Below are positions 19,985 through 60,898 of a stretch of DNA of 64,000 nucleotides, piece after piece. The notes under the pieces are model-generated. The model had not been told where the DNA came from and did no database searches. It saw only the letters and a list, made by a program, of their open reading frames with translations. The stretch lies in NCBI RefSeq assembly GCF_009914755.1, contig NC_060941.1; one strand, given 5' to 3'. A program made the translations under genes and the position numbers. Source of the DNA: the human T2T-CHM13v2.0 reference genome, Homo sapiens. Position 1 is the stretch's first letter, and each line of letters starts with the position of its first letter.

Positions 19985-20029
19985 GGTCCCGAGGCTGGGG
20001 TAGGGGTGGAGGTGTGGGTGTGGGGACAG
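19985..20029 (+). repeat. 45-bp G-rich segment duplicated at 21401-21445
   Basis: 44/45 identical to 21401-21445. Confidence 0.92.
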
Positions 20030-20479
20030 TGCCAGGGAAGTTTGGCACTACAGTGGAGCAAAAGAACAGAAGGGGAAGAGGAGTTCCATGCAGTTGGGCA
20101 TGTCACATAATTACAGGAGAAAAATCAGGCCAGAGCCTGGCTCTCTCTACCTCTGTCTGAGTGATCATCACCCTTATTATAAAGCAACTAATTATTAGTC
20201 TGGCTCATTAGCAATTATAAATCTCTAACTCCAGAACTTCATTTAAAAAATGAAAAGTTAGCACTTAATGATTTTCCTAACTGCTTAGATCATGCGCAGA
20301 GCTTACACATGCAGCTCCCGTGGTTCCTGGGAGCGGGGCTGGCCTTCAGGTACTGGGGAGGGGTCCCTGCTTTCCCATCCAGAAACCTGGATGTCCCCCC
20401 AGTGGCCGGAAATCAAGCGCTCTGAGATGTGAGAAGTGGAGAAAGAGCGGTGAACTTCCTTCTCCTTCTGTTTTCCAGT

Positions 20480-20675
20480 AAAAATAGAAACAATGTGTTT
20501 ATTGAGCCTTTCTGCGTGCCACGTGCTTGGTGTTGTGATGCCTTATTTCATTTAAATCTCCCCATAACCTGATACTGTTCATCTCCATTCTATTGATGTA
20601 GCACTTGCAGTCATGGCACCTGCCATAGGATCATGAGCTGGATGACACCCAGGTTGCCCTGACTTAACCACTACC
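20480..20675 (-). mobile_element. MIR
   Basis: 'tttattgagcctttctgcgtgcca...tttcatttaaatctccccataacc'. Confidence 0.65.
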
Positions 20676-21934
20676 CTTAACTAAGCCCCTACCCTTAACC
20701 ACTACCCCATGCTCAACCACAGCTCTCCATGGCTCTAATGAGGGAAGAGCCTTGGGTAGATTGATGGTTGTACCCTTTGCAAATGCTCCCTAAGATTGGA
20801 CTGCTAGAGAAAGGTGGCCTGTTAGATCCTGGTGTGTCTTGTGGGTCCATGGTGTGTGGGCAGGTGAGTGGATGGAGGGAAGATTCCTTCCCAGTTACTA
20901 GGATGGACACTTTTCATTATCCTGTGGCTCTTTAAGGCTTTTCTAGCCTCCTCATCCTGCCCCAAACTTTTCCAATTCTTTGCTACTTCTTCCGTTTCTT
21001 GAGCACTCACTGAAGGTTGGAACAAAGCTGAAGAGGTTGCATGAGGAAGGCCCTGTTCCCTCAGGCAGCCCTTCCCTTTTCTCTTTCTTTCTTCCAGGTG
21101 GAGGGGAATGGCTGGAGCCAGGAAGAGCTGCCTGAGAGCCACAGGCAAAGGTGGGAGGCGAAAGGAAGACAGAGCATGGATGCTCAGGCCCAGAAGTTGG
21201 AGGAAACACCCACCTGGGCACGTGAGACCCCCATCAAAGCAGCCTAGCAAGACAAGATGATCCCAGAACAAGGGAGGGCCCTTGGGTTCACCCTAACTGT
21301 GTGCATTTGACAGTGGCAGTGTCTTCCCACCTGTGAAAGTAAGGGGTAGGGGTTAGACAGTTCTTCCAGCTCCGGTGTTGGTTTCTGTAAAGAACCTTCT
21401 GGTCCCGAGGCTGGGGTGGGGGTGGAGGTGTGGGTGTGGGGACAGCAATTCAAACAGACAGTCCCCATCCCTACAGTCTGAGATTCACAACCTTAGTTGG
21501 AAGCTGTAACTATAAAATACCCAAATCACAAAACTTAAAGAAATGAATGACTTATATGACTTTGTGTATTTCTACAGAGAAAAGGGAAGATAGCCATTAG
21601 ATAGAAGAGTGGACATTAGTGACTCATGCATTTTGTCAGGGGTTCAAATTCCGGGTCTCCAAGTGACAAGGTCTAAAAAAATCTCAGAGTGGAACAGATT
21701 GGAGTACATATCATCAGATGTCTTGAAGATGTGGCATGGATAGAGCCTGTTCCTCTCATCCTACAAACCCAGGAAGGCTTCCTGGAGGAAGTGACCTCCA
21801 CATCAGAGCCAGGTCAGCAGGCAGGGCAGCTAGATAGGGCAGGTGCCCAAATGCCAGCTCACACAGCTCAGTAGAAATCACTGGAATACTGCTAGAGATC
21901 CTGGTGAGGGTGAAAGGAATCTTCTGATGAGCAG

Positions 21935-22116
21935 CTTGGGGGATGCAAAAGTCCTGCAAGTAACTGCACCATCCTCCTTGCTCTCCAAGGAGAGCAAGAA
22001 TCTGAGCATCTCAGAGCAGACCAGGCCCTTCCAGCCCAGTGTGGGGTAGAGAGCCCAGCCCCCTTGCTCTCCAAGGAGGATGGTACAGTTACTTGAGGGA
22101 CTTTTGTATCCCCAAG
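21935..22116. repeat. Fold-back inverted repeat with an internal templated segment
   Basis: 21935-21980 is the reverse complement of 22072-22116; 21997-22047 is the reverse complement of 23434-23484. Confidence 0.9.
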
Positions 22117-22149
22117 GGGCAGAAAGTCTGGGGTCAAGGACAAATGACC

Positions 22150-22338
22150 AAAAGCTTAGGGCTGACACACATGGGGCACTTCTTAAATGCTCCACGTGCA
22201 TTCAAGTCACTTAACTCAAATATTATCCTCATTGAACAGATGCGGAAACGGAGGCATGGAGCAATGATTACATAGCCTGGGAATGGAGGAGGCAGGATTT
22301 AAACTAGATGGTCTGGCTGCAGGGCTGTGTGACCTTCA
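22150..22338 (-). mobile_element. MIR
   Basis: 'tattatcctcattgaacagatgcggaaacggaggca...gcaggatttaaac'. Confidence 0.75.
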
Positions 22339-23094
22339 CATACTCATACTCATACTGTCCTACTCATACTGTCAGTATGACCTACTCATACTGTCTCTGG
22401 ATGAAGAAGTTGTGCTCACCCTGAGGGAAGGGCAAAGGAGGGGGCTCTCCTGGCAGAATATTGGTTTCCTACTGTGCCCCACACTAACCTATAGCCCAGT
22501 GGCCACATTCCTCCCATGAGATGCTCCTGGGACAGCAAGAGGTCCCTGGAGGAGAAGTGAGCCCCTGGTGGGTCCCGACCATGTGGTACCTGTCTTTGAA
22601 TCCCCACCTCCCAACAGTGCCCAGCATGGCCTGGTGGCACTGATGCCATGGAGCACAGCATCCTCTACTGACCAGAATGGGAACATGCCCCAGGGAGAAA
22701 CCCAAACCAGAAGGAAGCCCAAGCTAATTAGGCCTCCAGAGTCATATGATTTTAGAGAGAGGCTCCAAGGAATTTCTGGGGCCTTGAGAACAAGGAGGGA
22801 GCAGGAAAAGAGATAAAGACAAGATGACTCCACTGATCCTCAAAGACACATCCTAAGTTCAGGATAAACAGGCAGGGAGGGTATCCCAGGGTCAAGTCCC
22901 CCAGCCCAGGGGTGCCCAGACTGTCTTGGTGGAGTAGAAACTTTGTATGTTTCAGAGCCCGAGGACAGCTGGAGTGGCTGATTGTGATGCTCCTGAGTGG
23001 CGGGGAGTGGGTAGCTGGTGTTGATAGTTGAGCCCTAGAGCTTGGGGCACACGATTAAGGGTTGAGATGGGTTAACGGGGCACCAATGGGGGAA

Positions 23095-23240
23095 CACTAA
23101 GAAGAAATTCTGACTCAGTCCGGGTCAGCCCTGTGGTCCAAAGCAAATGGATCACCTCTCCACCTAGTGAGCTCCCTGTCTACTGAGGTATTCAAGAGAG
23201 GCTGGGCGACCCCTGGCAGGAATCAAGCACTAGGTGGAGG
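23095..23240 (+). mobile_element. L3/CR1 3' fragment
   Basis: 'gtgagctccctgtctactgaggtattcaagagaggctggg'. Confidence 0.6.
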
Positions 23241-24624
23241 TAAGGCTAAAATGTAATTACCATCAGCCTGATAAGGTGGGTCTCCTTCTTAACCCATTTT
23301 TCCCTAAGAATCTGCAGGCACAGAGAGGTTAAGAAACTGCTTGAGATCACATAGGGCCAGGATTCCCTTCAGGCTGCCCCCAACTTCAGAGCCCTTGTGT
23401 TTAGGGCCACCCTTGCTTCACCTCTGTATGGCAACCTCACACTGGGCTGGAAGGACCTGGTCTGCCCTGAGATGCTCAGATTCTGTTAGAAAAGCCCCTC
23501 TGCCCGGGGACCCCAGAACCTTTTTGCTCCCTGCACAACCCCCCAAGCCTTCACCCCAAGCCTCTGTCTGGATTGGCCTTGCTAGGATAGAGGCCTAGAT
23601 GGCGTTCTCTTGCTGAGGGCTGGTCAGAGGCCAGCAGTGCTCTGTCCTCCCCCGCTCCCCTCTGGCTGCCCATGGTGTGGCCCTCACAGCCCTGGGTGCC
23701 CCTCCCAGCCAACTGATTTTCTATGAAAGCTGTGGCAAGTGACGGCTTCTTGCCTGGGAACAGCACCTCTCGGCAAACTGACAGGTAATTGGCCCCTAAA
23801 TCCCCCAGGAGACACGGGGAGGATGAGGAAAAATTACGGCTGTGGAACTGAGTCTTAAAAATTATATCACCTTTGCTGACAGTGTAATTACTCCTTTTTC
23901 TCAAGATTTAGTGCAGATCTCCAATCCTTAAACAGTTGAGGGATATTTTAAGGGTTCTCCTTTTCTGTTCTTCTTTTCCCCTTGGCCTGCAGAGGCTAGA
24001 TTCCTGGCATTGGCCAGTTTCCCTGCTTCTTCTAGGAAGCAAAATGTCCCTGGGCTGGCCGTGCAGAGATCACGCAAGGTGGGAAGGGGAGATGGAGCAT
24101 GAGAAAGGGGGCTTGACCCAGGAGTCACTGTGTTTGGGCCACCCAGGGCAGCCACACAGTCCTGTATGAACCCCTGGCCACCTGTTTGAATGTCAGGCAA
24201 GGTCCCTTGGCTTCCAGAAGCTCTCCCTAGCCAACGCAGTCAGTGCCCACCCATAGCCCCTTAGTCTACTGCAGAGGCCATCTGTAGGCGGGTCCCATCC
24301 TTGACCTGAAGGTGATCTTAGTCATGGAGCAGGCTGCCAACCCCTGTGGGTTCATCTTCATCCTCCAGGAGCAACCCCCATCCAAAGTGGTAGAGTCCGT
24401 GGGAAGGACCCCAGTCCTGAGACATGTTCCCCACAGTCTCACAGAGGCTCCCCTGTGGGCCACGGGCCTCAGGGCTGGATTCTGAGCTGGGACTGGTACT
24501 TGTACCCAAACGGCCCTGAATCCCTCATTGAGTCTCACTGGAGCTTCAGGAAGTTGAGGAGGTTGCCAGCCCCTCCTATCCTAGGTCTCTAATGCAGAGG
24601 GGCCCTCACCTTGGGGGGCAGGAT

Positions 24625-24790
24625 GGGCCAGAGGCCCACAGCAGTGACCCACTCATTTACACACCTTCTACTGGCTTTCCCACCTTCCCTGCCGCAGTCT
24701 CCCCACTCCCCTCACGCCCCCAAATAAGCTACCTGCACCCAAATCCTTGTCTCAGCATCTGCTTTTGGGGAAACCCAAACTTGAGGCCCC
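24625..24790 (+). mobile_element. LTR16-like ERVL LTR, 3' part
   Basis: 'cccaaataagctacctgcacccaaatccttgtctcagcatctgcttttggggaaacccaaac'. Confidence 0.75.
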
Positions 24791-25764
24791 CTCCCCTGAA
24801 GCTTGGCACTAGTGCTGTGTGGGCACCAACTTCTGGTTGGGAGCAGGTGTTTTCTGAAGGCAAAGGAATGGTTTGCGTGGTCCAGGGGGCTCTTGTCCTA
24901 TTGGCTGCAACATACTCTAGAGACAGTGCCCCTTCTCTCAAAATTGAGGAAAGCGGTTTAGGGACCTGAACTCCAGAAACCACAATGTCTTTCTCCCTAG
25001 GAGGCTGTCACCCTTTCTTTAGCCTCTGGGTCCACAGATGAAGGTCTTTCTGCATTAGATACCTAGGAGGGGAGGGACTGGTGGTCTCCTTAACTTTTTG
25101 AAGTTCTTGATCAGAGCTAATGTGGGATTCAGGGTGCTGTGGCTAGAAGCACCAGTCTTACTTCAGAATCCAGTGAGCTCAGGAATCAGAACTCTGGGAT
25201 TTTGTCTTTGAATGACTGTCGGGATAGCGTCCTAACAGGTGGAGGCAGAGGGTGGGTACAGAGAATCGCAGGCCTGTGCTGACAAGGAATCGGATTTCTG
25301 CTGCTGTCAAAAAGGCCTTAAAATGGTCACCAAGCCCACAGCCAAGGACCAGTTTAGGAGATGAGACAATACGCTCGGGCCAAGGGACTCAAGCTAGCTC
25401 AAGATGGCATCTTTGGCCACTCCGAAGTGCCAGGCTTTGCACTAGACTCATGCCAGACTCATGAATGTCTTTGTTGTTCACGGAGATGCCTCGGTCAGGG
25501 CAAAGGCAGGATCTGGGCAGGAATTTAAGTTTCCCAAAGGTAGCCGCCAGACAGAATCTGCCTGTCCTTGGATCTTCTCATCTTGGAATCTCCAACAGGA
25601 CCCCTGTGAGACCTGGAGCTGGCAGCAGGGCTAGCTTCCTAGTCCCAGCTCTCCTGACAAGTCCACACCATCTCATGGCCACTTCATTCCCACCTAACTA
25701 TGCACTTTCAACATTACAGCTGTAACCCAATCCTGCAGCATCCTATCTCCTGGAGGGAAATGAA

Positions 25765-27014
<1,250 letters not shown>

Positions 27015-27701
27015 GTGAGGCTGTGGACTTCCTTCATGGGCACCAAAGTTCTCCATTTCCTTGGGGGCACTGCTGTTGTTCCAGCCAATAGTGGGGATGC
27101 TGCTGGTGGAGACCCGCCTTGAAGAGATGTAGCAGGAAAGAGCAGTGGAAGGTCCACTGGGTGTCATTTAGCAATCGGCACAGGCATGAACCCATCGGAA
27201 CTGGCTCTGGACATAAATGGCAGGTGAGAACTGCCTTGCGTATGTCCCAACTCCAGTGACAATACTAGAGCACAAAGAAGATGGCTATTTTGGGCCATCC
27301 AGAATCCACCTCCCCTCTGTATGTTTGGAAAAAGTCCCCGATATAGAATCTAAGCATGCCAGTGACGCACTCTGCCAGCCTGCATTGCTTGTGACCAGGC
27401 TTGACAACCGGATGTGCCCTTCCTGGACCTTTTGTCTGGAGCTGGCCACACAGATGCAGGATACACAGATGCAAGATAGACAGATGCAGGACGAATGGAG
27501 AACCTGTGGTCGTGGTTACTAACAGCCTCTATCCAGTTCCCAGGGGACAGTGGCCTCGTAGTGGCTGCAGTGGCATCCTGTATCCAGGACCCACAAAATG
27601 GGGCCCCTGGTGCTCCATGGAGGTGGTGGAGGGTCCTCACCAGACCATGCCTAGGCTGTGACTTTGGCTGTGGTCCTGTATACATTGTCACAAAGCCAAG
27701 C

Positions 27702-28379
<678 letters not shown>

Positions 28380-28519
28380 CAAGCCCTCCCAGAAATTCTG
28401 CAACCTCCTGATACCCTTTCAGCAAATTTCTCTGCTGCTTCAATTAGCCAGAATCAGTTTCTATTGCTTGGATCTAGAACCCTAATTGCAGCAGCCAACT
28501 CTGGGCTAGGAACTCCACA

Positions 28520-28700
28520 GTCTACTCACATCATCTCCTTTAGCCCTACCCAGGCCTTGAGGAAGGTGGCTTTATCTCAGCAAAACTGAGGCTCAGAGAG
28601 GTTGAGTAATTTTTCCCCAGATCACAGAGCTTTTGGTGGAGCTAGGATTCAAACCCAAGTCTTACTGACCTCAAAGACATGGAATCCTCAGCCACTAAGA
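28520..28700 (-). mobile_element. MIR
   Basis: 'aaaactgaggctcagagaggttgagtaat...ggattcaaacccaagtct'. Confidence 0.8.
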
Positions 28701-29924
28701 TCCCCAACTCCTTTTCTGCCCCCACTGCTTTAATTATACCAATAAGCAAGGGAAAAGCAGAAACAAGCCCACCACGCAGGGACCAGCCTGGGAGCCAAAT
28801 TGCTTCTGAGCTGAATGTTTCTCTCCCAGTCTTCAGTGAGGTGGTGGCAGCTCTTTAACTCCAGCTGCGGCGAGAACACAGTGCTCATATATATTCACAA
28901 GCGGGAGATGAAAAGCTGCACAATGCCCGGCCATTAATCCTAACTCAGGCCTTCCAAGCGGCGTGTGATGATCTGCCTGAAGCAGCGCCACATTCGTGCT
29001 CGGGAGCTGGGAATGCACCCCAAATCCACCGCCAGGGGCACACAGTCCAGGCTCCCCCACCACACTTTACCGTCCACCCTCATGCCCTAATGGCCTCATC
29101 AATGTTTCGTGGCCGCCTCAGTGCTCCTGACAGATAAATTAATGAGTTGGCCCTGAGCTATAGGAAGCACACCCCAAGAGAAGACAGAACTTAAGGAATT
29201 TAAGCCCCACTGCGCCTCTTGTGCCCAAGGTGGGAGAGTTGAAAGCTGGTTTCCTGGCGAGGGTGAGTGGAGATGGTCATTTTTCTGGCATTGATTCGTG
29301 GGTTTTCATTTCCCAGGAGCAGCCTGGAGCAAAGGAGAACGTGCAAGATGAATCTGGAAGGCCTCCCCCAACACGGCATGAAGAGGACCCGAGCCAGCCA
29401 GTCTGTGGATGGGCAGGAGACACAGGGAGCCCTGCTCAGGAGCCCGTGTGAGCACAGAAGGGGCAGCCAGGCTCCAGGTTTGTTAGTTGTCCAGACACCT
29501 GGAGCCTATGGGAGGCACAGAAGCTGGGAAGCTGGAGGTCCGTGTCTGGCTACACACGGCTGGGACTAAAGGATTGAGGTTAGTGCTTCCAAACGCACTT
29601 GGTGTTCTAGGCATGGGCTTCCAGACCTGGACCTGGCTCCCTGGCAAGGCCTCCCCTCTGTCCTTCTCTCCACCCACCTCTGTCCCCTCCCTGCTCAGTG
29701 CTCGACACCCACCATGTCACCCAGCCCCTTACTTACTTCTGACCTCTGACCCTCCTCACTGCCATTGACTGCAGCTCATTATTGTCCTTCCATCAGGTGC
29801 CTCCTCTCTGGACATGGGAGGCCACACAGTTCTGCTCTCGGGACTCAGATGCCACCCAGCACCCCCTGAGCATGTCCTGCAGCCTGGCCTCCTTCGCTGC
29901 TTCCTGGCAGCCAACCAATGCAGA

Positions 29925-30092
29925 GCGAGCTTTGGAACCTGGCCTGGGCATACATTTGGTCTCTACTACCCTGCAGTGGTGAGCCCTGGGCAGGTCATTT
30001 AAACTCTGAGCCTCTGCTTCGTGTGCAGTGTAGTGCAGTGGGTGGGACCCACCTTGCAGAGTTGTGATGAGGTTGAATGAAACTGCATTCAA
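29925..30092 (+). mobile_element. MIR
   Basis: 'ccctgggcaggtcatttaaactctgagcctc...gagttgtgatgaggttgaatga'. Confidence 0.65.
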
Positions 30093-30359
30093 GGGAGAGA
30101 TTATTTCCCTCCCCACTCCATGTATAACTACAACTGATTCCTAAAGAGTGGACTCATTCCCTGGAGGCCTCTGTGTTCTGAGTACTTTGATGAGTCTGGA
30201 GACACAGAAATGTGCCTGGGGTTAGTGTGAGTGCCTGAGAACACTGAATGAACTTCTTTGCACAAAAGAAGGAAAATGAACAACAGAGGAAAATTCACAG
30301 CTCTGAGGTCGGAGGGGGGAAGGGAACATGAAGAGATGGGAGGATGACTAAGAAAAGAA

Positions 30360-32251: not shown

Positions 32252-32563
32252 CTATCAGTGTTCTGGTTGCAAGCAATGGAAACTGATGCTGAAGGAATGT
32301 TTTGGAAGGATATGGGGGCACACACTGTTGATGGGAGGAAAGAAAGAAGGCTTGGAAAGTAGGGAGCAAGAGGGTTCTGGAAGCTGGAAAGCAGAATCTG
32401 TCTGACACTTCTGCCTCCATGGTCTCCACACACAGCCGCTATGTCAAGAGGCTACTACAAGCAAATTCTAACTGTTTCTATGTCTTTTCACTACTCAGCC
32501 AAAGTCAAAGCCAGAATGTATGATTGGCTAAGCTTGCTCACCTGACTGGACTCTGGCTGTCAG
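32252..32563 (-). mobile_element. Old ERVL/MaLR LTR (LTR33/MLT1-type), running into the minisatellite
   Basis: Starts 'ttctggttgcaagcaatggaaactga' and reaches 'tgattggctaagcttgctcacctg', the CCAAT/E-box region of such LTRs. Confidence 0.5.
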
Positions 32564-33015
32564 GATTGGCCACAATGGGTCACCTGACAGGACTCTACCT
32601 GTCAGGATTGACCATAATGGGTCACTTGACTGGGTATTGGTTGTTGGGACTGGCCAAACCAGTTACCTGACTGGACTGTCAGGACTGGCCCGCAGTGGGT
32701 CACCTGACATTATTGGCTGTTGGGATTAGCCAAACCGGTTACCTGACTGGACTCAGTCAGGATTGGCCACAACAGGTCACCTGACATTATTGGTTGTTGG
32801 GATTGGCCAAACCAGTTACCTGACTGGACTCTAGCTGTCAGGATTGACCATAATGGGTCACCTGACTGGACCCTGGCTGTTGGGATTGGCCAATCCTGTC
32901 ACCTCACTCAACTGTGGCTGTCAGGATTGGTCACATTGGTCACATTGGTCACCTGACTGGGTCCTGGCTGTTGGGATTGGTCAAGACAGGTCACCTGACT
33001 GACCCAGGCTATCAG
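32522..33015. repeat. Minisatellite: 12 units of ~35-50 bp with dimeric higher-order structure
   Basis: Consensus ~gattggccacaatgggtcacctgactggactctggctgtcag. Unit starts: 32522, 32564, 32606, 32648, 32683, 32724, 32761, 32801, 32842, 32884, 32925, 32975. Confidence 0.92.
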
Positions 33016-35494: not shown

Positions 35495-35564
35495 ATTTAT
35501 TTACTCAGTACTTATTTTGGGTGGGGACTTTTTAAGGCATTTTAGACCCATCACTTTATTTAAT

Positions 35565-36018
<454 letters not shown>

Positions 36019-39455: not shown

Positions 39456-39785
39456 CAGTGACAATTCTCCAGGACAAGTGCTACGTTCCCGGAGGGTGGG
39501 GGGTGTTGGGGTGAATGGAGGGGGATGAGCATGTAGAGGCTCTAAGGAACCCAGGGAACTGGGGGCAGGTGCAGAGTTCGTCTGGGCCAGTTTGGTCCAG
39601 CTTACCAGATGTTTCACTTGCTGACCTCCAGGGCCGGATGACACCTGTGTCTAGCCACATCCCGGCCTTCACTCTGGATATTCGAGAATGTTGACTCCCC
39701 ACTTGAGAAGTTCCCCTACTTCCAACTCCCTGGACCCCCTCCCCTCCTGCTCGTGGAGGCAGCTGGCTGGGTCTGATCTCTAGGC

Positions 39786-40568
39786 ATTTGTGTTAGCCAC
39801 ATTACCAGAAGGGGCCCTGATCCAGACACCCAAGAGAGGGTTCTTGGATCCTGCACAAGAAAATAATCTGGGGCGAGTCCATAAAGTGAAAGCAAGTTGA
39901 TTCAGAAAGTAAAGGAAAAAAGAATGCCCTTACCCAAATGCTGCCAGCAAGGGAACACCCTCTCTGGCTGCAGCCCCTCTGAATGGCTCATGTCATTGAG
40001 CCTTACTTTCTCATTACAAGTCCCACTGGCAGCATGAATGGGGGGTCTGGAGTCCCCTATATGTGACTGTCAGAGGTGTTTGAACAAGAGCAACTCCATC
40101 TTGAATGGGGGCTGGATAAACTGAGGCTGAGACCTACTGGCGCCAGTTATGGTTAAGGCATTGTAAGTCACAGGATGAGACAGGAGGTCAGCACAAGATA
40201 CAGGTTATAAAGACCTTGCTGATAAAACAGGTTGCAGTAAAGAAGCTGGCTAAAAGCCACCAAAACCAAGATGGCAATGAGAGTGACCTCTGGTCATCCT
40301 CATTGTTCATTATATGCTAATTATAATGCATTGGCATGATAAAAGACACCCCCACCAGCACCAAGACAGTTTACAGATGCCATGGCAACATCAGGAAGTT
40401 ACCCTATATGGTCTAGAAAGGGGAGGAACCCTCAGGTCAGGGGATTGCCCACCCCTTTCCTGGAAAACTGATGAATAATCCACCCCTTGTTTAGCATATA
40501 ATCAAGAAATAACCATAAAAATGGGCAACCAGCGGCACTCAGGGCTGCTCTGCCTATGGAGTAGCCAT
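39786..40568. repeat. TSD-flanked, part-inverted copy of 42772-43562 (MER41B plus unique flanks)
   Basis: TSD tctgatctctaggc at 39772-39785 and 40569-40582. 39785-39926 matches 42772-42913 (direct); 39926-40571 is the reverse complement of 42908-43562. Confidence 0.95.
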
Positions 40569-41046
40569 TCTGATCTCTAGGCCCAGACAAGCCCACTCTC
40601 CCCTCTGCCAGAACAAACTTCCCCTGGTCCCCACTTCCTGAGCATTTTCCCAACTGCCTCCTGCATTTTTCTTCTGCATCAGTCTCTCTCATTGGAAACA
40701 CTTTCATCTCCCCTTTGAGCTGGATTTGGGGCTTCCCCTGAGCCTCTGAGGTATTGTCTCTGTCACCAATTAGAATATAAAAGCTCAGCCATTTATCAAA
40801 GATACCCAGAAAGCAGTACCTGGACTGAAGTGCAGACAGGCATGTGTCTGCAAACCCAGATGCAGCCTCGCCTGGCGTGCACCGTTTCCACCCAACGTGG
40901 TCAGGAGGCTGGGAATGCATTTACAGACGGTCCCTGTAATCCCACAGGTGGGTGAGGGGATTTCCATTTTACATCTGAGGCTCAGGGAGGCAAGGGACTC
41001 CCTTAAGTCCTATGAGTGTGTGTATAAGTACAGCCAAAAAAAAACG

Positions 41047-42649: not shown

Positions 42650-42786
42650 CCATTAACCTGGTAGATCTTCCAAAAGCACCCTGGGGTCCATGCTGTCATC
42701 ATCCCCATTTTACAGATGAGAAAGTAGAGACTCAGGCTCAGGACCTTGCCCTGGATTCATATTGGTGGTGACATTTGTGTTAGCCA
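42650..42786 (-). mobile_element. MIR fragment
   Basis: 'atcatccccattttacagatgagaaagt'. Confidence 0.65.
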
Positions 42787-43420
42787 CATTACCAGAAGGG
42801 GCCCTGATCCAGACCCCCAAGAGGGGGTTCTTGGATCCTGCACAACCAGATAATTTGGGGCGAGTCCATAAAGTGAAAGCAAGTTGATTCAGAAAGTAAA
42901 GGAATAAAGAATGGCTACTCCATAGGCAGAGCAGCCCTGAGTGCCGCTGGTTGCCCATTTTTATGGTTATTTCTTGATTATATGCTAAACAAGGGGTAGA
43001 TTATTCATCAGTTTTCGGGGAAAGGGGTGGGCAATCCCCTGACCTGAGGGTTCCTCCCCTTTCTAGACCATATAGGGTAACTTCCTGATGTTGCCATGGC
43101 ATCCGTAAACTGTCAAGGTGCTGGTGGGAGTGTCTTTTAGCATGCTAATGCATTATAATTAGCATATAATGAACAATGAGGATGACCAGAGGTCACTCTC
43201 ATTGCCATCTTGGTTTTGGTGGGTTCTAGCCAGCTTCTTTACTGCAACCTGTTTTATCAGCAAGGTCTTTATAACCTGTATCTTGTGCTGACCTCCTGTC
43301 TCATCCTGTGACTTAGAATGCCTTAACCCTGACTGGGGAATGCAGCCCCAGTAGGTCTCAGCCTCATTTTATCCAGCCCCCATTCAAGATGGAGTTGCTC
43401 TTGTTCAAACACCTCTGACA
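42787..43420 (-). mobile_element. MER41B ERV1 solo LTR (634 bp)
   Basis: The reverse strand reads tgtcagaggtgtttgaacaagagcaactccatcttgaat...ggggcccttctggtaa; 4-bp TSD gcca at 42783-42786 and 43421-43424. Confidence 0.92.
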
Positions 43421-44179
43421 GCCACATAGAGGGGACTCCAGACCCCCCATTCATGCTGCCAGTGGGACTTGTAATGAGAAAGTAAGGCTCAATGACATGA
43501 GCCATTCAGAGGGTCTGCAGCCAGAGAGGGTGTCCCCTTGCTGGCAGCATTTGGGTGAGGGCTGCCTAGCTGGGCGTGGGGGCCTGATTCCCTCCGAGGC
43601 TTCCTCCAGCTCTCTGCAGGTGACACCAGGCTCTTTATAAATAGCAGGGCCTGCTTTCACCAGGACTTGCTGGTCTGCTGCTTTGTAAACAGGCTTTCTT
43701 CTATTTGTGCTCTCTTCTGAGCATCGTTCTATACTCCTTGAGGTTAGGGACACCTTGGTAGTGACCACACCCTGCCCCACACAGCCTGGACAGATCTCTG
43801 TTCACTGGGGGCCTGGCTGACCAGTGATGGAAGGTGAGTACGGGAGCACCGTCACCCAGAGTTCACTAAACCTTGGGAGTGGACGACCTGAGAGCCCCAA
43901 GGTGGCCTTGGTCTCTGCCCATCATGCCTGATAGAGAGCACCTACCTCCAGGAATGGAAGCAGTGAGGGAGGCTTTGTGTTTTTCAAAAGAATAAAGTGC
44001 AAATTGGTGGTCTGACTCCAATGCCAAACACCGTGCCCAACAGGAGATCCCTGCGCAGCCTGCCAGCGCTGACAAGGAGGAAACAGTAACAAATGCCATC
44101 TCCACGAAAATCACATCGCAGCATTCGCAGGCAAGAGTGGGGGCCTGGGCCACACACTGGCTGCTGTGTTTCCCTGCAA

Positions 44180-45854: not shown

Positions 45855-46190
<336 letters not shown>

Positions 46191-52244: not shown

Positions 52245-52566
52245 TCAATCATTTGTTCAGCAACTATTTATTGAGCATCTACTACAAGCCTGAGGCTGTG
52301 TGAGGACCTGGGAACAGATCAGGGGGCACAACAGATTTGGTGGCTGCTATTGAAAGCAGCTCTATTCTGGCAGGGAATGGAGACACATCCATTGGTGCAG
52401 CGTCCCTGCTGCACCTGAGCCTGCAGCAGCAAGGAAGGGTTGAGGGCGGGCTTCCTGGAGGAAGTGCTATGGAAGCCAAGGCTTGAGGGATGCATAGAAG
52501 CCGACAGGCTGGGATTGAGGGAGGAGTGAGGTACAAAGGCAGAGTGTTTTCAGGCAGAGGGGACAA
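52245..52566 (-). mobile_element. L2
   Basis: 'ttcagcaactatttattgagcatctact...ggcttcctggaggaagtg...tcaggcagagggga'. Confidence 0.75.
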
Positions 52567-53133
52567 TATTTTCCAAGAAACTGAAGCTCAGAGAAGATGA
52601 GACATTCTAAGTCACATGACTAGGAAATGAGTGGGAGACCAGTTTCTATGCCCTTGGGGTCCCCTGGTGGGAAACTTCACAGGTGAGGAAACTGAGGCAA
52701 TGGTCAACACAAGTCTCCTGATTTTGGGAATCACCCCTCCCCTTAGGAGGATAAACCAATGAGCCAGCCCCTTTCATGGAAAATGATCACCTCTCAGATA
52801 GATTACAGACAGCTGTGGTTATCAATGCTGGTCTAAAAAAGTGATTAGACAGAATTTAAATAATGATTTAGATTAATCATGTGCAAATGACCCTCTGTGG
52901 GGACAAGAAAATAATAAAGAAAGCCAACGTGTTCAGAGCGTTATTACTTACAACCAAGGCCTAGCACATTGTTAATGTTCAATAAATTGCTGAAGGAAGG
53001 AGAGACCCCCCCCCCCCACCAACTTCCTCCATGGAGTCTCAGGCCTCTCCCTCCTCTTTGCACTGGGTAGTGAAACCCCCAAGATCAGATGCAGAGCCCC
53101 CATGCAAAGCCAGGTCAAGGTGTCAAGTGATAG

Positions 53134-53505
53134 GGGCCGAGCTCAGTGGCTCACGCCTGTAATCCCAGGCTGAGGCAGACAGATCACTTGAACCCAGAAG
53201 TTCAAGACCAACTAGGGCAACATAGTGAGATCTCATTTCTACAAAAAATATAAAAATTAGCCGGGTGTGGTGGCGCATGCCTGTAGTCCCAGCTACTCGA
53301 GAGGCTGAGAAGTGAGAGAATGGCTTGAGCCCAGGAGATCAAGGCATCAGTGAGCTGCGATCACACCACTGCACTCCAGCCTAAGTGACAGAGTGAGGCC
53401 CTGTCTCAAAAAAAAAAAAAAAAAAAAAAGAAAAAGAAAAAGAAAAAGAAATAAGAAAAGAAAAGAAAAGAAAAGAAAAGAAAAGAAAAGAAAAGAAAAG
53501 AAAAG
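53134..53505 (+). mobile_element. AluJ with an A22/(AAAAAG)3/(AAAAG)10 tail
   Basis: Alu body 53134-53407; purine-rich tail 53408-53505. Confidence 0.92.
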
Positions 53506-53886
53506 AAACCACTGATAGAAGCCTGGAGCTGAGAGGGGCCTAAGTTCACCTTATCCAACCTGCTCCTTATGTAGAGGGGGAAATTGAAAGCTGCAGACAG
53601 ATGAGGCTGTGTCTAAAGTCCTGAGAGAACTGGTGTCAGAGTAAGAACTAGAAGGAAGAGCTTTAGATTCTTCTGCACTGGCCAGGCCTTGAAAATGCAA
53701 GTATTCTCTTCTAAGGAAAGCAGCCCCAGGCGCTTCCTTGAAAAGTCTGCTCCCACCTCTTGTGCCAGGGGACCTGGTTACCTTGGCAACCACGCTGGGC
53801 CAGGGAGACTGCACTCCAGCCAAAAGCAGTTATGGGTAAGCCAGACACAAGGGAGGCCAGCCAGGGTGTTCCATGTGGATACTGAC

Positions 53887-54792
53887 TGTATCAGTTGTCT
53901 ATTACTGGGTAACAAGTCATCCCAAAACTTAGCGGATTAACACAATAATCACTTTATTATCTCTCATGATTTCTGTGGGTCAGGAATTTGAACAGGCAAC
54001 AGTGGGAACTTATCTCTATTCTCTGATGTCTGGGACCTTGGCTGGGAAGTCAAGAAGCTAGGAACAACTCAACAGTTTGAGGCTGAAATCATCTGGAGGC
54101 ATCTTCACTCACAAGTCAGGTTGTTGATGCCTGTTACTGGCTGGGAACTCAGCTGGACTTCCAACCAGAACATCTCCATGGTATCTAAGTGGGCTAGTTT
54201 GGGCTTCCCACCATCATGGCTGCTGGGTTCCAAGAATGAGAGTCTCCAGGAGAGCTAGGCGGGATTGCATGGCCTTTTTATAATCTCGCCTTAGAAGTCA
54301 CTTCATGTCACCTCTATATATTCTATTGGTCAAGGCAATCACAGAGGTCCTTCCAGGACTGAGGGAGAATAATGTCAAGGTCAGATGGACATCGATATGG
54401 TTTGGCTGTGTCCCCACCCAAATCTCTTCTTGAATTGTAGCTCCCATAATCCCCACGTGTCATGAGAAGGACCCCACCACACATGGTCATTGAATCGTGG
54501 GGCGGGTTTTTCCTGTGCTGTTCTTGTGACAGTAAGTCTCACAGGAGCTGACGGTTTTATAAAGGGCAGTTCCCCTGCACATGCTCTCTTGTCTGCCGCC
54601 ATGTAAGACGTGACTTTCCTCCTCCTTCGCCCTCCGCTGTTATTGTGAGGCCTCCCCCGCCATGTGGAACTGTAAGTCCATTAAACCTCTTTTTCTTTAT
54701 AAATGACCCAGTCTCGTGTGTGTTTTTATTAGCAGCGTGAGAATGGCCTAATACAGATCTGGAAGAGGAGATATTACTGGGGCCATCTTTGC
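53887..54792 (-). mobile_element. MLT1H-like LTR, interrupted by THE1
   Basis: 'tgtatcagttgtctattactgggtaacaa...ccaaaacttag...tctgtgggtcaggaatttg...ctattggtcaa'; resumes 'ggagatattactggggccatcttt'. Confidence 0.8.
54393..54755 (+). mobile_element. THE1 (C-like) solo LTR
   Basis: 'gatatggtttggctgtgtccccacccaaatc...gcagcgtgagaatggcctaataca'. Confidence 0.92.
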
Positions 54793-56222
54793 CCCAGTAA
54801 TCTGCGCCTAAGCAGGGCCTCAGCAATCTACTCAAATTCAGTTATTTTAAGAAGTATATTATTGAGTGCCTGTTATGTGCCAGACAGTGCACTAGGGGAT
54901 CTCCTGTGTCTTGGGGAGTTTGAAGAAAAGTACACAGCAGCTGCTGAGTCACACTAGGGAGAAGCAGACAGAAACAAGTTCATGCGTGGCTGGGGAGTCC
55001 CTGCCTGCAGGCCTTTCCCTCAGAAGCAGCCGCCTTTGTACAGACACAGGTGTCCATCTCCACCCTGGCCCCCAGCAAGGTCAGTGCGTGGGCCATATCA
55101 GTGTGGGTGTGACAACCTGGGGTCTGGCTGACCCTGAGGTCTTGCTATATCATATGTGCAGCATCCCCTGCCCTTGAGTTCACAGGAGGGCAAGGGAGAA
55201 ATTCTGTGTTTATAGCCTGCCATGGAGCAGAGTCGTGGTTCCCCATTTTCCCCTCCTGCTGAGCATGACCCAAAGCCTGCCATCATCTTCCCTTTCCACA
55301 TCCCCACCTGGGCTCCTGCCTCCAAGGCACAGAAGCCTTCTCAGGGTCCTTTCCGGCCCCAGCCTCCCCAGCCTCCTTTCAACCAACTGAATCTCATAGA
55401 AGCAGCTGGTTTTGCTTTTTCCCTCTGTCCCAAAGATTTTCAATCTGCATTGCCATTTTTATTTTCAATGCACCCCCATTAACTCATAAGGGTTCTCAGA
55501 GGCCACCTGATTCTTGCATACACCCAGCCATGGGCAGCTCAATCCAACTCATGTCGTTTGCAGACAGCTGAACCCCTTAGGAGGTTCTGCAATCTCATTC
55601 AAACAACACTAAACTCATCTCTAGATCCCACTGTGCCTCTCTCGCCCCACTGAAATAATTGTGGATTAAAGGAATCTCCCCAGGCAGGACTGGCATTTGT
55701 GCTTATATATAAATAGGGAACCTTCTGAAAAGTTAATTGTGGTGGTGGATTATGGTGGTGACTTCCCAGAGAGAGACAGGGATTGCTTTAATGAAATGAA
55801 TGTGTGCAGTGCAAGGGTTGAGTCTAAGCTGAGGGGTTTGGCAAGGGGCAGGGAGGAAGGGTGGTCTGATCCAGGAGGAACTGTTTAGGAAATGATGATT
55901 TCAGAGAGGAAGGAGGTCAGCGGAAGCTGGATAATTTGTGGCAGAGCAGATCTGATGAGGAGAAAGGCCAGAAGGAAGGGCAAGAGAAAGTAAAGATGAA
56001 GCCGTTAGCATTCCTAGGGGCGGATGAAGGCCAGAGGGCTCCGGAGGGTTAATGGGAAAGGTGGCTGCTGGGCAGCTGCTTCAGGCAGACGCCAAACTGG
56101 AGAGATCTGGGCTCAAAGCAGAAGAGGACCTGCTTCTCCAGCAGACTTGGGGGCAAACAGGTACAACTCTGAGTTGGACTGGAGGGTAGGAAGTAAGGGT
56201 GGAGCAGCAACAAAAGCTGTAA

Positions 56223-56305
56223 CATTCATTCATTCATTCATTCATTCATTCGTTTTTTCAACAATCACTTACTGGGTTTCTACTGTGTGCAAAGCACTGA
56301 ATTAC
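56223..56305 (-). mobile_element. L2 3' end with (ATTC)n
   Basis: (cattc)n-like tract followed by 'caacaatcacttactgggtttctactgtgtgc'. Confidence 0.7.
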
Positions 56306-56827
56306 GCAACTCCCTAGCAGAGGGAATTCCCAGGGTGAGCTGAGGAAGTGACCTTGTGTGCAATCAAAGGTCATCCTCAGCAGAGTGGACTAAGGGGTCC
56401 AGGGAGCCCCCAAGAATGCCACAGAGGGAGGATCTCATTTTGAGGTGTTTGGGAGCCAAGGAGGATAGGTGGCTCTTATAGGGGGCAGGACCCTTTCTGT
56501 CTCACCTACAGCTTAGAAAAGCTGCATCCCTGCTTCCCTCTCCTGTGGCTCCCCAGTGCCATCCGCATCCTGTGCCCCTCCTCACTCTGGGTTTCCAAGT
56601 CCTCTGTGCACGCCTCCCTTCATCTGATGGTCATCTCGTTGGTCTTCTGTCCCCTCTGTCATCGTAGCCTGTCTTGACCCACCCTCCTAAACCCCAAACC
56701 TCGGGCTAGACCTGCCTCTCTATCCATTCAAGGAAGTTACCCCAAGGACTTTCCAACCTGTGCCTCACCCACAAACGGTGGTGCAGCTTGGGAGTGGCCA
56801 TTCCCCTCCTCTTAGAACTCCATGACT

Positions 56828-57032
56828 CAGTGGCTGTCAACTGGGGCAATACTGCCCATCTACTGGACATTTGGAAATGGGGCAGGGGCAGTTGTCGCAA
56901 TGGCCAGGGGGTGCTGCTGGCATTTGGAGCATGGACGCCAAGCGTAACCAGCCCCGTGCAGTGCCCTGCACAGACCCACATGGTGACCAGTCGCCACCCC
57001 CCAATCCCCGAGTTGCCCTGCTGAGAAATATG
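56828..57032 (+). mobile_element. Diverged MER20-like MITE
   Basis: 'cagtggctgtcaactggggcaat...ggacatttggaaatg...gggggtgctgctggcatt...tgctgagaaa'. Confidence 0.7.
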
Positions 57033-58214
57033 AAGCAGGGGCCTTCCCAGCACCCCCTCCTACCCCCACTCTCTCCAGGCTATCAGGGAGCGTGACCTAA
57101 TCACGCATGCCTGGCTCAGCCCCTCTGGCCTCTTGCACTCCTTCTGAGCTGCGGAAAGATTTCCATCCTTGTAGATATCTTGCCCTGCCAGGTGCTGGCT
57201 GCCATTCTGGGGAGTATTTTCAATTCAGCAGGGAGGACACAGCAGCCCCCTGTGGCCCCACAGCTGTGCCAATACAGCTTTTATGGTAATAAGGCTGCAA
57301 TCTTTGAACTCCTGGTTCCAAAGGAGTTTGACGCCAGAGTCCCTCTCTCATCTGGCTCCAAACTCAGAGAAAGGACCACCGTTGTGACTGACCACCAGTG
57401 CTCAAAGCCTAACAGACCCTGCTGGGGAGGTTAGGAGGGTCTGGGCCCGGAGCCTGCAAATCCAACCAGCAAAACCCATCCAGGGCATTTCCAGGAAATG
57501 GGCATTCCCGCCCGTCTCCAACATGAGCACTGGAAACGCTTTTGTGTATCTTCATTATAACCTTCTCTGCCCTGCTGCTTCCCTTGTGCATTGGAGATCA
57601 GGTTTCTGTAGACACCCAGGGCATCATGGGTGCAGCCATGAAGCCCCAGCACCTGAACTGGAAAAAGATTCCTTTTCCTTTGGTCTAAGGACAATGGGGG
57701 AAGGGAGGGCTAAAAACAGGCCTTTGATACACCTGATCGATGTGAGAAAATTGTTCTTTCATTTTAAAATTGCTCTTGGCCATGAGGACATCTGCACCCC
57801 ATGCACCTTTTACAGTTGTTCTGTGTTTGGCTCCAAACCACTAGAAGACAGATTTGTTGGCAGTTCCCAGATGTCCAGGCCAGAACTGCCTCTTCTGACC
57901 TTGGTCAAGGTCAAGGGAAGAACTAGCCTGCCTTCCTCTCCCTTGCAGCTCTTTCTGCTTCTTCCTGGGCAACAGCAAGGGGCTGTGGTGTTTGAAAACT
58001 CACCTGAGAAGAGGTGACACCTGCCATGGAGCTGCTGGTGGAGAGGGAGGCCTCACTGCTCCAGAGAGAGTGAGAAACCAGCCACATTCAACTGCTCAGC
58101 CCTGGTGAGCTTGCCTGAGATTGGAGTCCCCGTCTGTGGCTGTTTGAAAGAGGGCCTCACTTCATAAAGAAGGCAAGCAATCCTTCCTCACCTCCCATCC
58201 ACAGAGGAATCCTG

Positions 58215-58305
58215 GCTACAGCTGGAGCAAGGCTGGGTCAGCTTCCAGACCCTCCAGCTCCAACTCCAGCTCTGGAAGCTGACCCAGCCTTGCTCCAAAT
58301 GTAGC
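58215..58305. repeat. Near-perfect inverted repeat/hairpin (27-bp perfect stem, 21-nt loop)
   Basis: 58223-58249 is the exact reverse complement of 58271-58297; a further 6 bp pair after a 2-nt mismatch. Confidence 0.95.
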
Positions 58306-58621
58306 TTCCAATACACGAGTGTCCACCATGCATCCCAAGCAGGATCTGTGCCATCTTCTGGCCATCACACCCACCCTGACTCTCACTCTCCCTGTGTGCC
58401 TCACTCCAGCCCGGCCCATTGTCCCCGAGTAGATGCTATCCCCAGACAGGAAGGAAGCCCCTCAAGATGCCAGGTGAGTTCGGGTTCAGACCCCAGGCTG
58501 AGCTGCCCGGGCTATGTTGGGGAAACCCTTGGGGCACTGACCAGGAGCCAATTAACCCCCACAAGCCACTCCCAGGGCTCCAGGTGGAAGAACAGACTTA
58601 TCTCCCTGGTCATCCTTTGTC

Positions 58622-58719
58622 TCCATGCTCCAAATGCCAGCAGCACCCCCTCTGCACTGCGACAACTTACCCCTGCCCCATTTCCAAATGCCTGGCACAT
58701 GGGCAACATTGCCCCAATT
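58622..58719 (-). repeat. Inverted copy of 56839-56935
   Basis: About 86% identity, with the first 30 bp identical. Confidence 0.88.
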
Positions 58720-60825
58720 CCTCCCAATGCCTTGCTCTCAGTAGATCCCCTGCCCCTGTGCCCCAGGGGAGGAGAGGGACGGCCGGGGGTGAAGGGCAGA
58801 GGGAGAGACCGACCTCCAGAGCAACTCCTGAGTCCACAGGAACAATCCACCCATCTCGGTGGCTGGAGCCGCCCCCGTGCCCAGCAGGCCCTGTCCTGGC
58901 TCAGCACCGCAGGGGGGCTGCTCCAGGAGCCTCTCCTCTCTCAGCCAGGGAGGCCCACAGCCTAGTGCCGCCTGGGTCTTCAGGGGGTGTGTAGACACCA
59001 GAACACTCAGGCTACCCTGGAGGTATTCTGAACACCTGGGCCAGCCCTGGATTTTTCTTTTCTTTTCGTTTTTTTAACCACTGATGGCATCCTGTCCTCC
59101 CACAGCTCTGTGGAACAGGCAGGGCCAGTGTCACAATCCCATTTTGCAAATGGAAAAACCTGGAGGCGGCCCCTTTACCATTTCCCTTTATAAGGCCCAC
59201 CAGAGCTGGCACAGATGTGAGCTCCTTTTCCATGTGGTCCCTCCTGAAGCTGTGTTCTTCTGCCTCTGGCTGCCTCCCTTTGCTGTTGTGGCTGGGGTTG
59301 GGAGGTGGTTGTGGTGCTGCTGCTCCCAGAGAGCTCCGGGACTCTAGTCTCCTCATCTCTCTTCCCACTGGCTCCAATCCCCACCATCTACTCCAGCACC
59401 AGAAAGACCTGGACCAAAGGAGGTGGGTAAATACAGAGGAAGCAAGGCACAGAAGCCGCTAAGGTGTGAAAACCTTCAGGATCCTGATGATATTCAAACC
59501 CGGAAAGGTCTCCAAGGAGGAAGTGCAAGCCGTATGCTCTCTGAACCATTCCCCATCTTTGCATGTGGCATTTGGCAAAAATCAGGTCGGACTGGACATC
59601 CCCGAGATGGAGAAAAAGAGGTGGAGGATTGGGTTCACTGGGTCTTTGGCAAAATCAGAGAGCCAGGACAGCCTGTCTCCAGGTCACAGAGAGGAGGCAC
59701 CCAGGCCCCATGACAGAGGGTGGGAACTGAGGGTCACAGAATGCCCTTTCCTGAAGAGTCGGCAGGGGCCTCAGGCCAGTCTTTGGGGGCTGCAAGACTC
59801 TGAGTCTCAAGGTACCCGGCGGAGCCCACCACACATGACCTGCACGAGGGACTCGGGAGTCCAGGCCATCGGCCAGGATCCCCGGCGCCCTGCGGTCTGT
59901 CCAGCCCCTGGTTGGAAGTAGAGACGACGTCACCTTGGGCATCAGGGAGGAGAATGATGCACGAGCCAGCACAATAAGTGGAGACAGATCTAGTTTGAGA
60001 GTCTCCGAAGATGATATTACTCAGCAGCCTCACGCTTTTCATCTGGAACTTATTGGAAAACCTCGCTAAGGGGATCAGCTGCCTCCCAGGTTCCGACTCC
60101 CAGCTCCCATCCAATTGGCATTAAGGCCCTTTAAAGTATTACTTCTCGACACCATGAGCATTGTATGTTCCTGACAGGATAAGCCTGCCACAAATTAATA
60201 CCTGGGGCAGATCCTAAAACACAATTCTTCCCGGCTGCAATAATTCCAGCCAACCCCTCTATCTGCGCTGACAGATGCAGTAAATCTTTCATCGTTGCAA
60301 TTCATATTGTTTTTTTCCTCTGGTACCTGAAATAGCCAAGACAATAAACTTTACCTCCTTTTATGATTATCGATGTGCTTATAGGGCACCCATGCTGCCT
60401 GCACCAGCACCGACCCACCCGGGGTCCCATTGAGCCTGTAGGGAAGCGGCTCCCTTTATCCTGCAGGCTCACAAGCCCCATGTGGAGGCTGGAAGAGTTG
60501 GTGGGCTGGTGTCTGGGAGAGACAGAGGTGAGAGGCTCCTGTCTCTGAGAAGCTGAGGGTGGCAGTCAAGGAGGAGGGAGGGGACCTCAGCCCTGAGGTT
60601 GCAGGGAGAGACCAGGGCCAGTGAGGACAGCGGGGAGAGCCTCAGGACACAGAGGTCCTCTGCCTGCCCTTGTGCCGGCCAAGGTACATGAGTGACAAAC
60701 TCTGCCAAGGTCCTCTGTGCAGGGGACTCTGAGAATTGCCATGCGACCTGCCTCATTCCACGTTCTCCTTATTGACAAGCACATCACAGAGAGCCAGATC
60801 TAGGTCCTAGCCCCACAGGCCTTGA

Positions 60826-60898
60826 TTTCTCCATCTGCAAAATGGGATTTGTGACAGGAGCCCTGCCTGTTCCACAGAGCTGCGGGAGGACAGGATGC
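60826..60898 (-). repeat. Inverted copy of 59087-59158 (MIR-derived)
   Basis: About 66/73 identical. Confidence 0.88.

What the first reader, a model, noticed from the sequence alone, without database searches (positions are those of the whole stretch)
19985..60898. Window-wide pattern: recurrent short-range, mostly inverted, self-templated copying
Seen: five donor/copy pairs with gaps of about 1.37 kb (direct, 45 bp), 1.39 kb (inverted, 51 bp), 2.2-2.3 kb (twin-primed, ~780 bp), 1.69 kb (inverted, ~97 bp) and 1.67 kb (inverted, 73 bp). There are also three fold-backs (21935, 22364, 58215). They cluster at 20-23.5 kb, 40-43.5 kb and 57-61 kb, and identities range from ~86% to 98%, so the events differ in age. 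None has poly(A). Inference: a persistent local mutational process with a 1.4-2.3-kb reach, such as repair of germline breaks (e.g. resected meiotic breaks at recombination hotspots, or R-loops) from nearby ssDNA or nascent RNA. Standard repeat and segmental-duplication annotation would miss these. I cannot compute whether the density exceeds background.
Basis: partly seen in the sequence, partly recalled or inferred. Interest (0 to 1): 0.72.

Follow-up and report, generated by a model that had tools for sequence, protein, structure and literature searches.

The report
Ordinary nearby DNA-repair copy scars
This stretch of human chromosome 17 holds five short pieces of DNA that are duplicated 1.4-2.3 kb away, likely scars left when broken DNA was patched by copying a neighbouring sequence; this is a known process, and neighbouring DNA carries such scars at a rate that my small control set could not tell apart.

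Summary
All five pairs and three fold-backs are real. They are far above a shuffled null (0 pairs in 30 shuffles). In each pair the local partner is the best or only other genome hit.

They match proximal repair-mediated duplications (RDs; Pace et al. 2009, PMC2671141): donor <5 kb away, peak ~1.2 kb, no poly(A).

The hotspot inference is not supported. 260 kb of control DNA holds 7 similar pairs, so 2.15 are expected per window. Orientation (P=0.24), spacing (P=0.64) and clustering (P=0.12) do not stand out. A 2-4x excess is not excluded (P=0.03-0.06 counting six events, post hoc).

Corrections: the 21935 fold-back and the 51-bp copy are one four-piece insertion, and the 22364 'fold-back' is mostly a tandem expansion.

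The best piece is the 783-bp copy at 39786-40568. It has twin-priming geometry and a 14-bp target-site duplication but no poly(A) or L1 nick motif. Both broken ends likely copied the same donor strand.

The parts
19985..20029 (+). P1 copy a (45 bp, G-rich, matches a four-G-run quadruplex-type pattern); donor or acceptor undetermined
   Evidence: (2 hits genome-wide)
21401..21445 (+). P1 copy b, direct, 1/45 differences
21935..22047 (+).
22062..22117 (+). Adjacent template of the first three pieces (14-69 bp from the inferred break)
23434..23484 (-). P2 likely donor; lies inside a weakly detected old repeat that continues across both ends
   Evidence: nhmmer E 7e-4 to L023
22339..22395 (+). Small tandem expansion (three 13-mers) with an 8-nt snap-back, at the end of a multi-copy old repeat (MIR-like, name recalled)
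39772..39785 (+). Left copy of the 14-bp target-site duplication flanking the P3 acceptor
39786..40568 (+). P3 acceptor, 783 bp, permuted: direct piece (donor 42773-42913) joined to inverted piece (donor 43562 down to about 42908, ends overlap the target-site duplication by 3 nt); no poly(A)
40569..40582 (+). Right copy of the 14-bp target-site duplication
42772..43562 (-). P3 donor: intact solo LTR at about 42790-43420 (MER41-like, name recalled) with a short flanking direct repeat, plus 142 bp of unique upstream flank
   Evidence: (colinear with 8 of 8 other copies, 2 of them split by their own insertions)
56832..57058 (+). P4 donor: full-length old dispersed repeat (MER20-like, name recalled); the duplicated part is 56839-56951
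58606..58719 (-). P4 acceptor, inverted fragment of the donor
58215..58305 (.). Fold-back: 35-bp arms (94%) around a 21-bp spacer made of two short repeats complementary to the left arm
59008..59158 (+). P5 likely acceptor: two inverted blocks (59008-59052, 59087-59158) around a 34-bp T-rich replacement
60826..60976 (-). P5 likely donor; its old-repeat homology (MIR-like, name recalled) runs on beyond 60826 (weak, E 0.07-0.4)

Best explanation
The pairs are real local duplications with microhomology junctions and no terminal poly(A), likely fixed scars of separate germline double-strand breaks that were patched by copying nearby DNA (proximal repair-mediated duplications), at a density not shown to exceed that of surrounding DNA.

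Mechanism I favour (inferred): after a break, one arm is resected and exposes a long 3' single strand. A 3' end anneals to it through 1-5 nt of microhomology, a polymerase copies 45-650 nt, lets go, and the ends are joined. The resected arm's own end folding back gives inverted copies; the opposite end priming on that strand gives direct copies.

P3 needs both at once. Its donor lies to the right, and both new pieces read as extensions templated by the bottom strand, which is the strand that resection of the right arm would expose. The 14-bp target-site duplication would come from a staggered break with 3' overhangs.

Shown: coordinates, uniqueness, junction overlaps, the target-site duplication, donor identity for P3 and P4, control density. 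Inferred: the breaks, the resection, the polymerase, the cell type and the order of events.
For: - Local partner is the best or only other hit for 5 of 5 pairs.
- Gaps of 1.37-2.34 kb lie in the RD range: 824 of 1,136 within 5 kb, 753 within 3 kb, peak ~1.2 kb, 0 of 39 proximal cases with poly(A), 6 of 39 with a target-site duplication (PMC2671141).
- Microhomology of 5/4/2 nt in the 21935-22047 insertion and 1/1/3 nt in P3.
- 7 like pairs in 26 control stretches; 3 of 3 tested were local-best genome-wide. Window vs control P=0.13-0.43.
- No excess of close neighbours among 260 of 824 published RDs (4 vs 2.3 expected within 64 kb, P=0.19).
- Self-annealing of resected 3' ends giving inverted duplications is proposed in 10.1101/2024.12.14.628481 section 9. 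A sub-2-kb SV excess at human hotspots is reported in PMC7615360.
Against: - Point estimates of enrichment are all above 1 (1.4-3.1). Counting six independent events gives P=0.06, or 0.03 if two low-complexity controls are dropped. Strong non-Alu fold-backs (>=55 bits) are 2 here vs 0 in 260 kb.
- 20 of 26 controls come from the same chr17 region, so a regional excess is barely tested (1 pair in the other 6).
- P3 (783 bp) exceeds the longest published RD (619 bp). It needs a 2.2-3.0-kb reach, and only 1% of mouse meiotic resections exceed 1.8 kb (PMC7263140).
- Single-piece events cannot tell which strand was the template. No outgroup empty site was seen.
Confidence: 0.75

Rival explanations
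1. A true local hotspot: this interval broke and was repaired from nearby templates repeatedly over tens of millions of years (persistent break site, R-loops or successive recombination hotspots), at 2-4 times background.
For: Rate ratio 2.3-3.1 on the relaxed count; six events vs 5-7 in controls, P=0.03-0.06; ages differ (P3 3.6% vs P4 13.4%); three published RDs lie within 31 kb elsewhere on chr17q.
Confidence: 0.15
2. P3 (and possibly others) was copied from RNA: a nascent, non-polyadenylated minus-strand transcript read by L1 ORF2p or a repair polymerase, with twin priming at a nearby break.
For: Twin-priming order of pieces with the minus strand (LTR sense) as template, a 14-bp target-site duplication and a 6-bp overlap at the inversion point. 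Transcription-coupled templated insertions through DNA/RNA hybrids are reported (10.1101/2022.09.30.509517, abstract only). The reach exceeds typical mouse meiotic resection.
Against: No poly(A), no AATAAA/ATTAAA on that strand of the LTR, and neither nick resembles 5'-TTTT/A. The copy starts 142 bp upstream of the LTR. No annotated transcript covers 42.7-43.6 kb in the hub's table. The same geometry follows from a resected DNA arm.
Confidence: 0.2
3. The pairs are independent insertions of ordinary dispersed repeats, perhaps homogenised by local gene conversion.
For: P3, P4 and P5 overlap old repeats.
Against: P3 shares 142 bp of unique flank found only at the two sites and is 95% identical locally vs <=87% to other copies. 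P4b is a fragment with sharp ends. P1 and P2 have only two copies.
Confidence: 0.04
4. The inverted pairs are duplicated breakpoints of 1.4-2.3-kb micro-inversions made by staggered breaks.
For: Three simple inverted pairs flank similar-sized intervals.
Against: The P4 donor repeat runs colinear across both ends of the duplicated part, and so, weakly, does the P2 donor. P3 is a clean insertion between 14-bp target-site duplications. P5 is not excluded.
Confidence: 0.05

Closest known systems
Proximal repair-mediated duplications (RDs), Pace, Sen, Batzer & Feschotte 2009, PMC2671141 (read parts 1-5 of 8, search passages, and Table S1 parts 1-4 of 15 plus 60 of 74 chr17 places, which cover all chr17 rows of the <5-kb sheet)
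   Same: Donor <5 kb away with peak ~1.2 kb; no poly(A); microhomology, filler and occasional target-site duplication; chimeric multi-template acceptors; an inverted example; spread over primate evolution.
   Different: P3 is longer (783 bp vs maximum 619) and copies an LTR, which their pipeline excluded. P1 (45 bp) is under their 50-bp floor. None of their 28 proximal chr17 rows lies between hg18 68.3 and 75.3 Mb, where I place the window by gene order (recalled). Orientation and strand geometry were not analysed in the passages I searched.
Doublets, Thomas et al. 2004 PNAS (not held; seen only as described in PMC2671141, otherwise recalled)
   Same: Short two-copy local duplications, proposed to come from imperfect break repair; P1 and P2 are of this size.
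   Different: Recalled as exact 25-100-bp matches, mostly same-strand; four of five pairs here are mainly inverted.
L1 twin priming / class 1 templated sequence insertion polymorphisms (PMC5110952 abstract; twin-priming passages in 10.1101/2024.12.14.628481)
   Same: P3 has a target-site duplication and an inverted-plus-direct two-piece order.
   Different: No poly(A), no polyadenylation signal, no 5'-TTTT/A site, and the donor is only 2.2 kb away.
Polymerase-theta / template-switch insertions and fold-back inverted duplications at resected ends (PMC7615360 passages; 10.1101/2024.12.14.628481 section 9; 10.1101/2024.03.07.583931 search listing only)
   Same: Microhomology-linked multi-piece insertions from flanking single-stranded DNA, as at 21935-22047, 22339-22395 and 58215-58305.
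   Different: Those studies observe recent or induced events; here the enzyme and cell type are unknown.

Membership tests
Proximal repair-mediated duplication (Pace 2009) | Donor on the same chromosome within 5 kb, not tandem | tested here: met
   5 of 5 pairs, gaps 1372-2337
Proximal repair-mediated duplication (Pace 2009) | Copy traceable to one donor, not a dispersed repeat | tested here: met
   P1, P2, P4, P5: only the local partner found (the tool warns that common words are skipped). P3: unique flank has 2 hits and local identity is 95% vs <=87%
Proximal repair-mediated duplication (Pace 2009) | No poly(A/T) tail at the ends | tested here: met
   Longest A/T run <=5 at the ends of 6 of 6 copies checked; the one run of 5 lies inside the copied repeat of P5a; P5a also has an internal T-rich tract
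Proximal repair-mediated duplication (Pace 2009) | Microhomology, filler, deletion or target-site duplication at breakpoints | tested here: inconclusive
   Clear for P2 (5/4/2 nt) and P3 (1/1/3 nt, 14-bp duplication); P1, P4 and P5 cannot be resolved without an empty site
Proximal repair-mediated duplication (Pace 2009) | Length within the published 50-619 bp | tested here: not met
   Met by P2, P4, P5; P1 is 45 bp and P3 783 bp. The bounds reflect their pipeline and sample
Proximal repair-mediated duplication (Pace 2009) | Empty site in outgroup primates | not testable with these tools
   No other primate genome is held (no relatives)
L1 twin-primed / class 1 templated insertion (P3) | Target-site duplication | tested here: met
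   14 bp, 39772-39785 / 40569-40582
L1 twin-primed / class 1 templated insertion (P3) | Inverted 5' piece joined to a colinear 3' piece from one template strand | tested here: met
L1 twin-primed / class 1 templated insertion (P3) | Poly(A) tail downstream of a polyadenylation signal | tested here: not met
   No tail; 0 AATAAA/ATTAAA on the minus strand of 42760-43430
L1 twin-primed / class 1 templated insertion (P3) | 5'-TTTT/A endonuclease site | tested here: not met
   Neither inferred nick is T-rich on its 5' side
L1 twin-primed / class 1 templated insertion (P3) | RNA template (splicing, transcript ends) | not testable with these tools
   No intron in the donor and no expression data
Local mutational hotspot | Density above matched background | tested here: inconclusive
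   Rate ratio 1.4-3.1, all CIs include 1, P=0.07-0.43; six-event count P=0.03-0.06 post hoc
Local mutational hotspot | Overlap with DMC1/PRDM9 hotspots, R-loops or germline transcription | not testable with these tools
   No such tracks available

The most novel reading that the evidence does not exclude
Proximal repair duplications are mostly templated by the resected single strand of the broken molecule itself. P3 would then be 'twin priming without RNA': both 3' overhangs of one staggered break extended on the same exposed DNA strand 2-3 kb away, leaving an L1-like signature (target-site duplication plus 5' inversion) with no L1 involvement. Such pairs would be tens of times commoner than the 2009 catalogue (26-35 per Mb in my controls vs 0.62 per Mb of TE DNA) and could map ancient break sites, with this window a 2-4x enriched one.
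Probability: 0.15. Interest if true: 0.5.

Novelty: new member of a known kind. Interest (0 to 1): 0.16.

Why it matters
As instances these are ordinary: uncatalogued members of a class described in 2009, in intergenic DNA with no annotated exon in any copy (hub table).

The useful residue is a strand-geometry test. Two-piece copies like P3 record which strand was the template. A genome-wide tally could separate resected-DNA from RNA templating and explain why these duplications peak at 1-2 kb. That question got little follow-up: 8 papers in the library hold 'Pace' plus 'repair-mediated duplication', and none appeared from title or abstract to be a mechanistic follow-up.

Tried and rejected
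- Dispersed-repeat origin: rejected by genome-wide searches and the unique flank.
- Micro-inversion breakpoints: rejected for P3 and P4, weakly for P2, open for P5.
- Canonical L1 retrotransposition of P3: no tail, signal or nick motif.
- Inverted bias, gap distribution and spatial clustering: none significant.
- Clustering of published RDs, prompted by three chr17 rows within 31 kb: not seen in 260 of 824 rows ('All primates' rows on 17 chromosomes; P=0.19 at 64 kb, 0.06 at 100 kb, 0.21 at 100 kb without chr17).
- The first filter run counted the window's self-hit as distal and dropped P3; fixed.
- Rows dropped before counting: 208 control and 25 window alignments as dispersed repeats, and 10 control and 1 window as tandem. 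Two of the tandem-dropped control pairs (L012, L033) were restored after inspection, and results are given with and without them. Five L029 alignments (66-74%, a local family cluster) and three L033 array hits were left out of every count. Two old control pairs (69-72%) and P6 enter only the any-identity count.
- The planned 1.2 Mb of genome-wide control could not be obtained; only 260 kb was analysed, which leaves region-versus-genome density open.
- Thomas 2004 is not held and earlier findings were not available.
- Absolute ages depend on the assumed rate (P3 about 8 My at 2.2e-9, 18 My at 1e-9) and are not relied on.
- Supplements of the bioRxiv preprints and of PMC7615360 (its Fig. S13 of complex hotspot SVs) were not seen and may already show P3-like geometry.
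Full report
1. Observation. Self-BLAST and repeat finding recover every pair at the stated spacing. P1 is direct (45 bp, 1 difference, gap 1372). P2 is inverted (51 bp, 3 differences, 1387). P3 is two-piece (28 differences in 788 columns, 2337). P4 is inverted (13/97 in the core, 1655). P5 is inverted (two blocks, 9/116, 1668). None arises in 30 of 30 composition-preserving shuffles (best 36.5 bits). Genome-wide searches return only the local partner for P1, P2, P4 and P5. The tool notes that it skips common words, so this shows best match rather than strict uniqueness. For P3 the partner is 95% identical, against <=87% for the 40 scored of 3,791 candidates, and the 142-bp non-LTR flank occurs only at the two sites.

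2. Anatomy of P3. The right-hand segment is colinear with 8 of 8 other genomic LTR copies over about 42790-43420, so it is the donor. The family name MER41-like is recalled, not from a call. The left copy (39786-40568) is permuted and sits between exact 14-bp direct repeats. Its junction overlaps are 1, 1 and 3 nt, and about 6 bp appear in both pieces. Read from the two 3' overhangs that such a duplication implies, both extensions spell the donor's top strand, so both would have been templated by the bottom strand. That is twin-priming geometry, but there is no poly(A), no AATAAA/ATTAAA and no TTTT/A nick.

3. Anatomy of the other events. The 21935 fold-back and P2 form one insertion of four pieces linked by 5-, 4- and 2-nt overlaps. 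Three of the four pieces are inverted copies of DNA to the right, 14-69 bp and 1.4 kb away, as expected if the right arm's 3' tail folded back repeatedly (inferred). P4's left copy lies in a full-length old repeat that aligns end to end with a control copy, so the right copy is the acceptor and no inversion breakpoint crosses the donor. P5's left copy has a 34-bp T-rich tract where its partner has unrelated 33 bp; its origin is unexplained. The 22364 feature is three 13-mers with an 8-nt snap-back. The 58215 feature is a 35-bp fold-back with a spacer made of two short arm-derived repeats.

4. Background. I ran one filter on the window and on 26 10-kb control stretches: 20 spaced evenly over about 450 kb around the window and 6 drawn at random from GC-rich bands; GC 36-54%. 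Controls hold 7 pairs at >=85% identity, gaps 796-4306, 2 of them inverted. Three of three tested were local-best genome-wide. Corrected for edge loss, 2.15 are expected per 64 kb (1.59 without two low-complexity pairs).

Orientation gives P=0.24, gaps P=0.64 and spatial clustering P=0.12.

Against my reading: adding the 58215 fold-back gives six events and P=0.06 or 0.03, and strong non-Alu fold-backs are 2 vs 0. These tests are post hoc, on a window chosen for looking rich. At the control rate, 2-7% of windows would hold five or more. Most controls are regional, so a broad 17q25 excess is neither shown nor excluded.

5. What is known. Pace et al. 2009 (PMC2671141) described 824 human duplications with donors within 5 kb. 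They peak near 1.2 kb, average 162 bp, carry microhomology, filler or occasional target-site duplications, have no poly(A) in 39 of 39 examined, include chimeric cases, and show no tendency to cluster. The authors call their count a minimum and link the class to the doublets of Thomas et al. 2004. None of their 28 proximal chr17 rows falls near the window (hg18 placement by recalled gene order). My test on 260 of their 824 rows finds no clustering. Hinch et al. (PMC7615360, passages) report template switching and a sub-2-kb size excess for SVs at human hotspots. Mouse meiotic resection mostly ends 0.3-2 kb out, with 1% beyond 1.8 kb (PMC7263140, passages). P2, P4 and P5 (reach 1.4-1.8 kb) fit that range; P3 (2.2-3.0 kb) does not fit comfortably.

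6. Mechanism. Most likely each event is a separate germline break repaired by microhomology-primed synthesis on nearby single-stranded DNA, then end-joining (0.75 for the class). Within it I favour the resected arm of the same molecule as template, at roughly even odds against a D-loop in the sister or homologue, because it yields both orientations, the 1-2-kb reach and P3's two-ended geometry without extra assumptions. An RNA template for P3 remains possible (0.2). A true hotspot is about 0.15.

7. Novelty. These are new instances of a known class. Searches for a prior description of twin-priming-like proximal copies without poly(A) returned none by title or abstract. The closest was inverted duplication at resected L1-cut ends. 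The library lacks most subscription papers, so absence in print is not established. Verdict: observation confirmed, hotspot inference unsupported, interest 0.16.

Noticed in passing
A genome search found no other copy and also missed the partner. It could be an ancient repair duplication or the long terminal inverted repeats of an old element.
   Followed up: partly
window 2977-3118: Near-tandem duplication, 77-bp period, 86% identity.
   Followed up: no
window 32522-33015: Degenerate 41-42-bp minisatellite rich in GATTGG/CCAA words.
   Followed up: no
window 59053-59086: 34-bp T-rich tract (A-rich on the minus strand) replacing 33 bp inside the P5 copy; no local template of 11 bp or more was found within 3 kb.
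   Followed up: partly
window 19985-20029 and 21401-21445: Both P1 copies match a four-G-run quadruplex-type pattern with loops up to 12 nt.
   Followed up: no
L022 1495-1662/2466-2633; L025 5351-5541/6337-6528; L030 2884-3096/7402-7616; L016 3644-3716/6144-6216: Clear uncatalogued proximal duplications (87-95%) in flanking chr17 DNA, implying 26-35 such pairs per Mb in these controls, far above the published minimum.
   Followed up: partly
L029 2205-7041: Four mutually similar ~380-bp segments (66-74%) within 5 kb with no match in the other pooled sequence: a local family cluster of unknown nature.
   Followed up: no
PMC2671141 Table S1, hg18 chr17:67.367-67.398 Mb: Three published repair duplications within 31 kb, though the rows tested show no general clustering.
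   Followed up: yes
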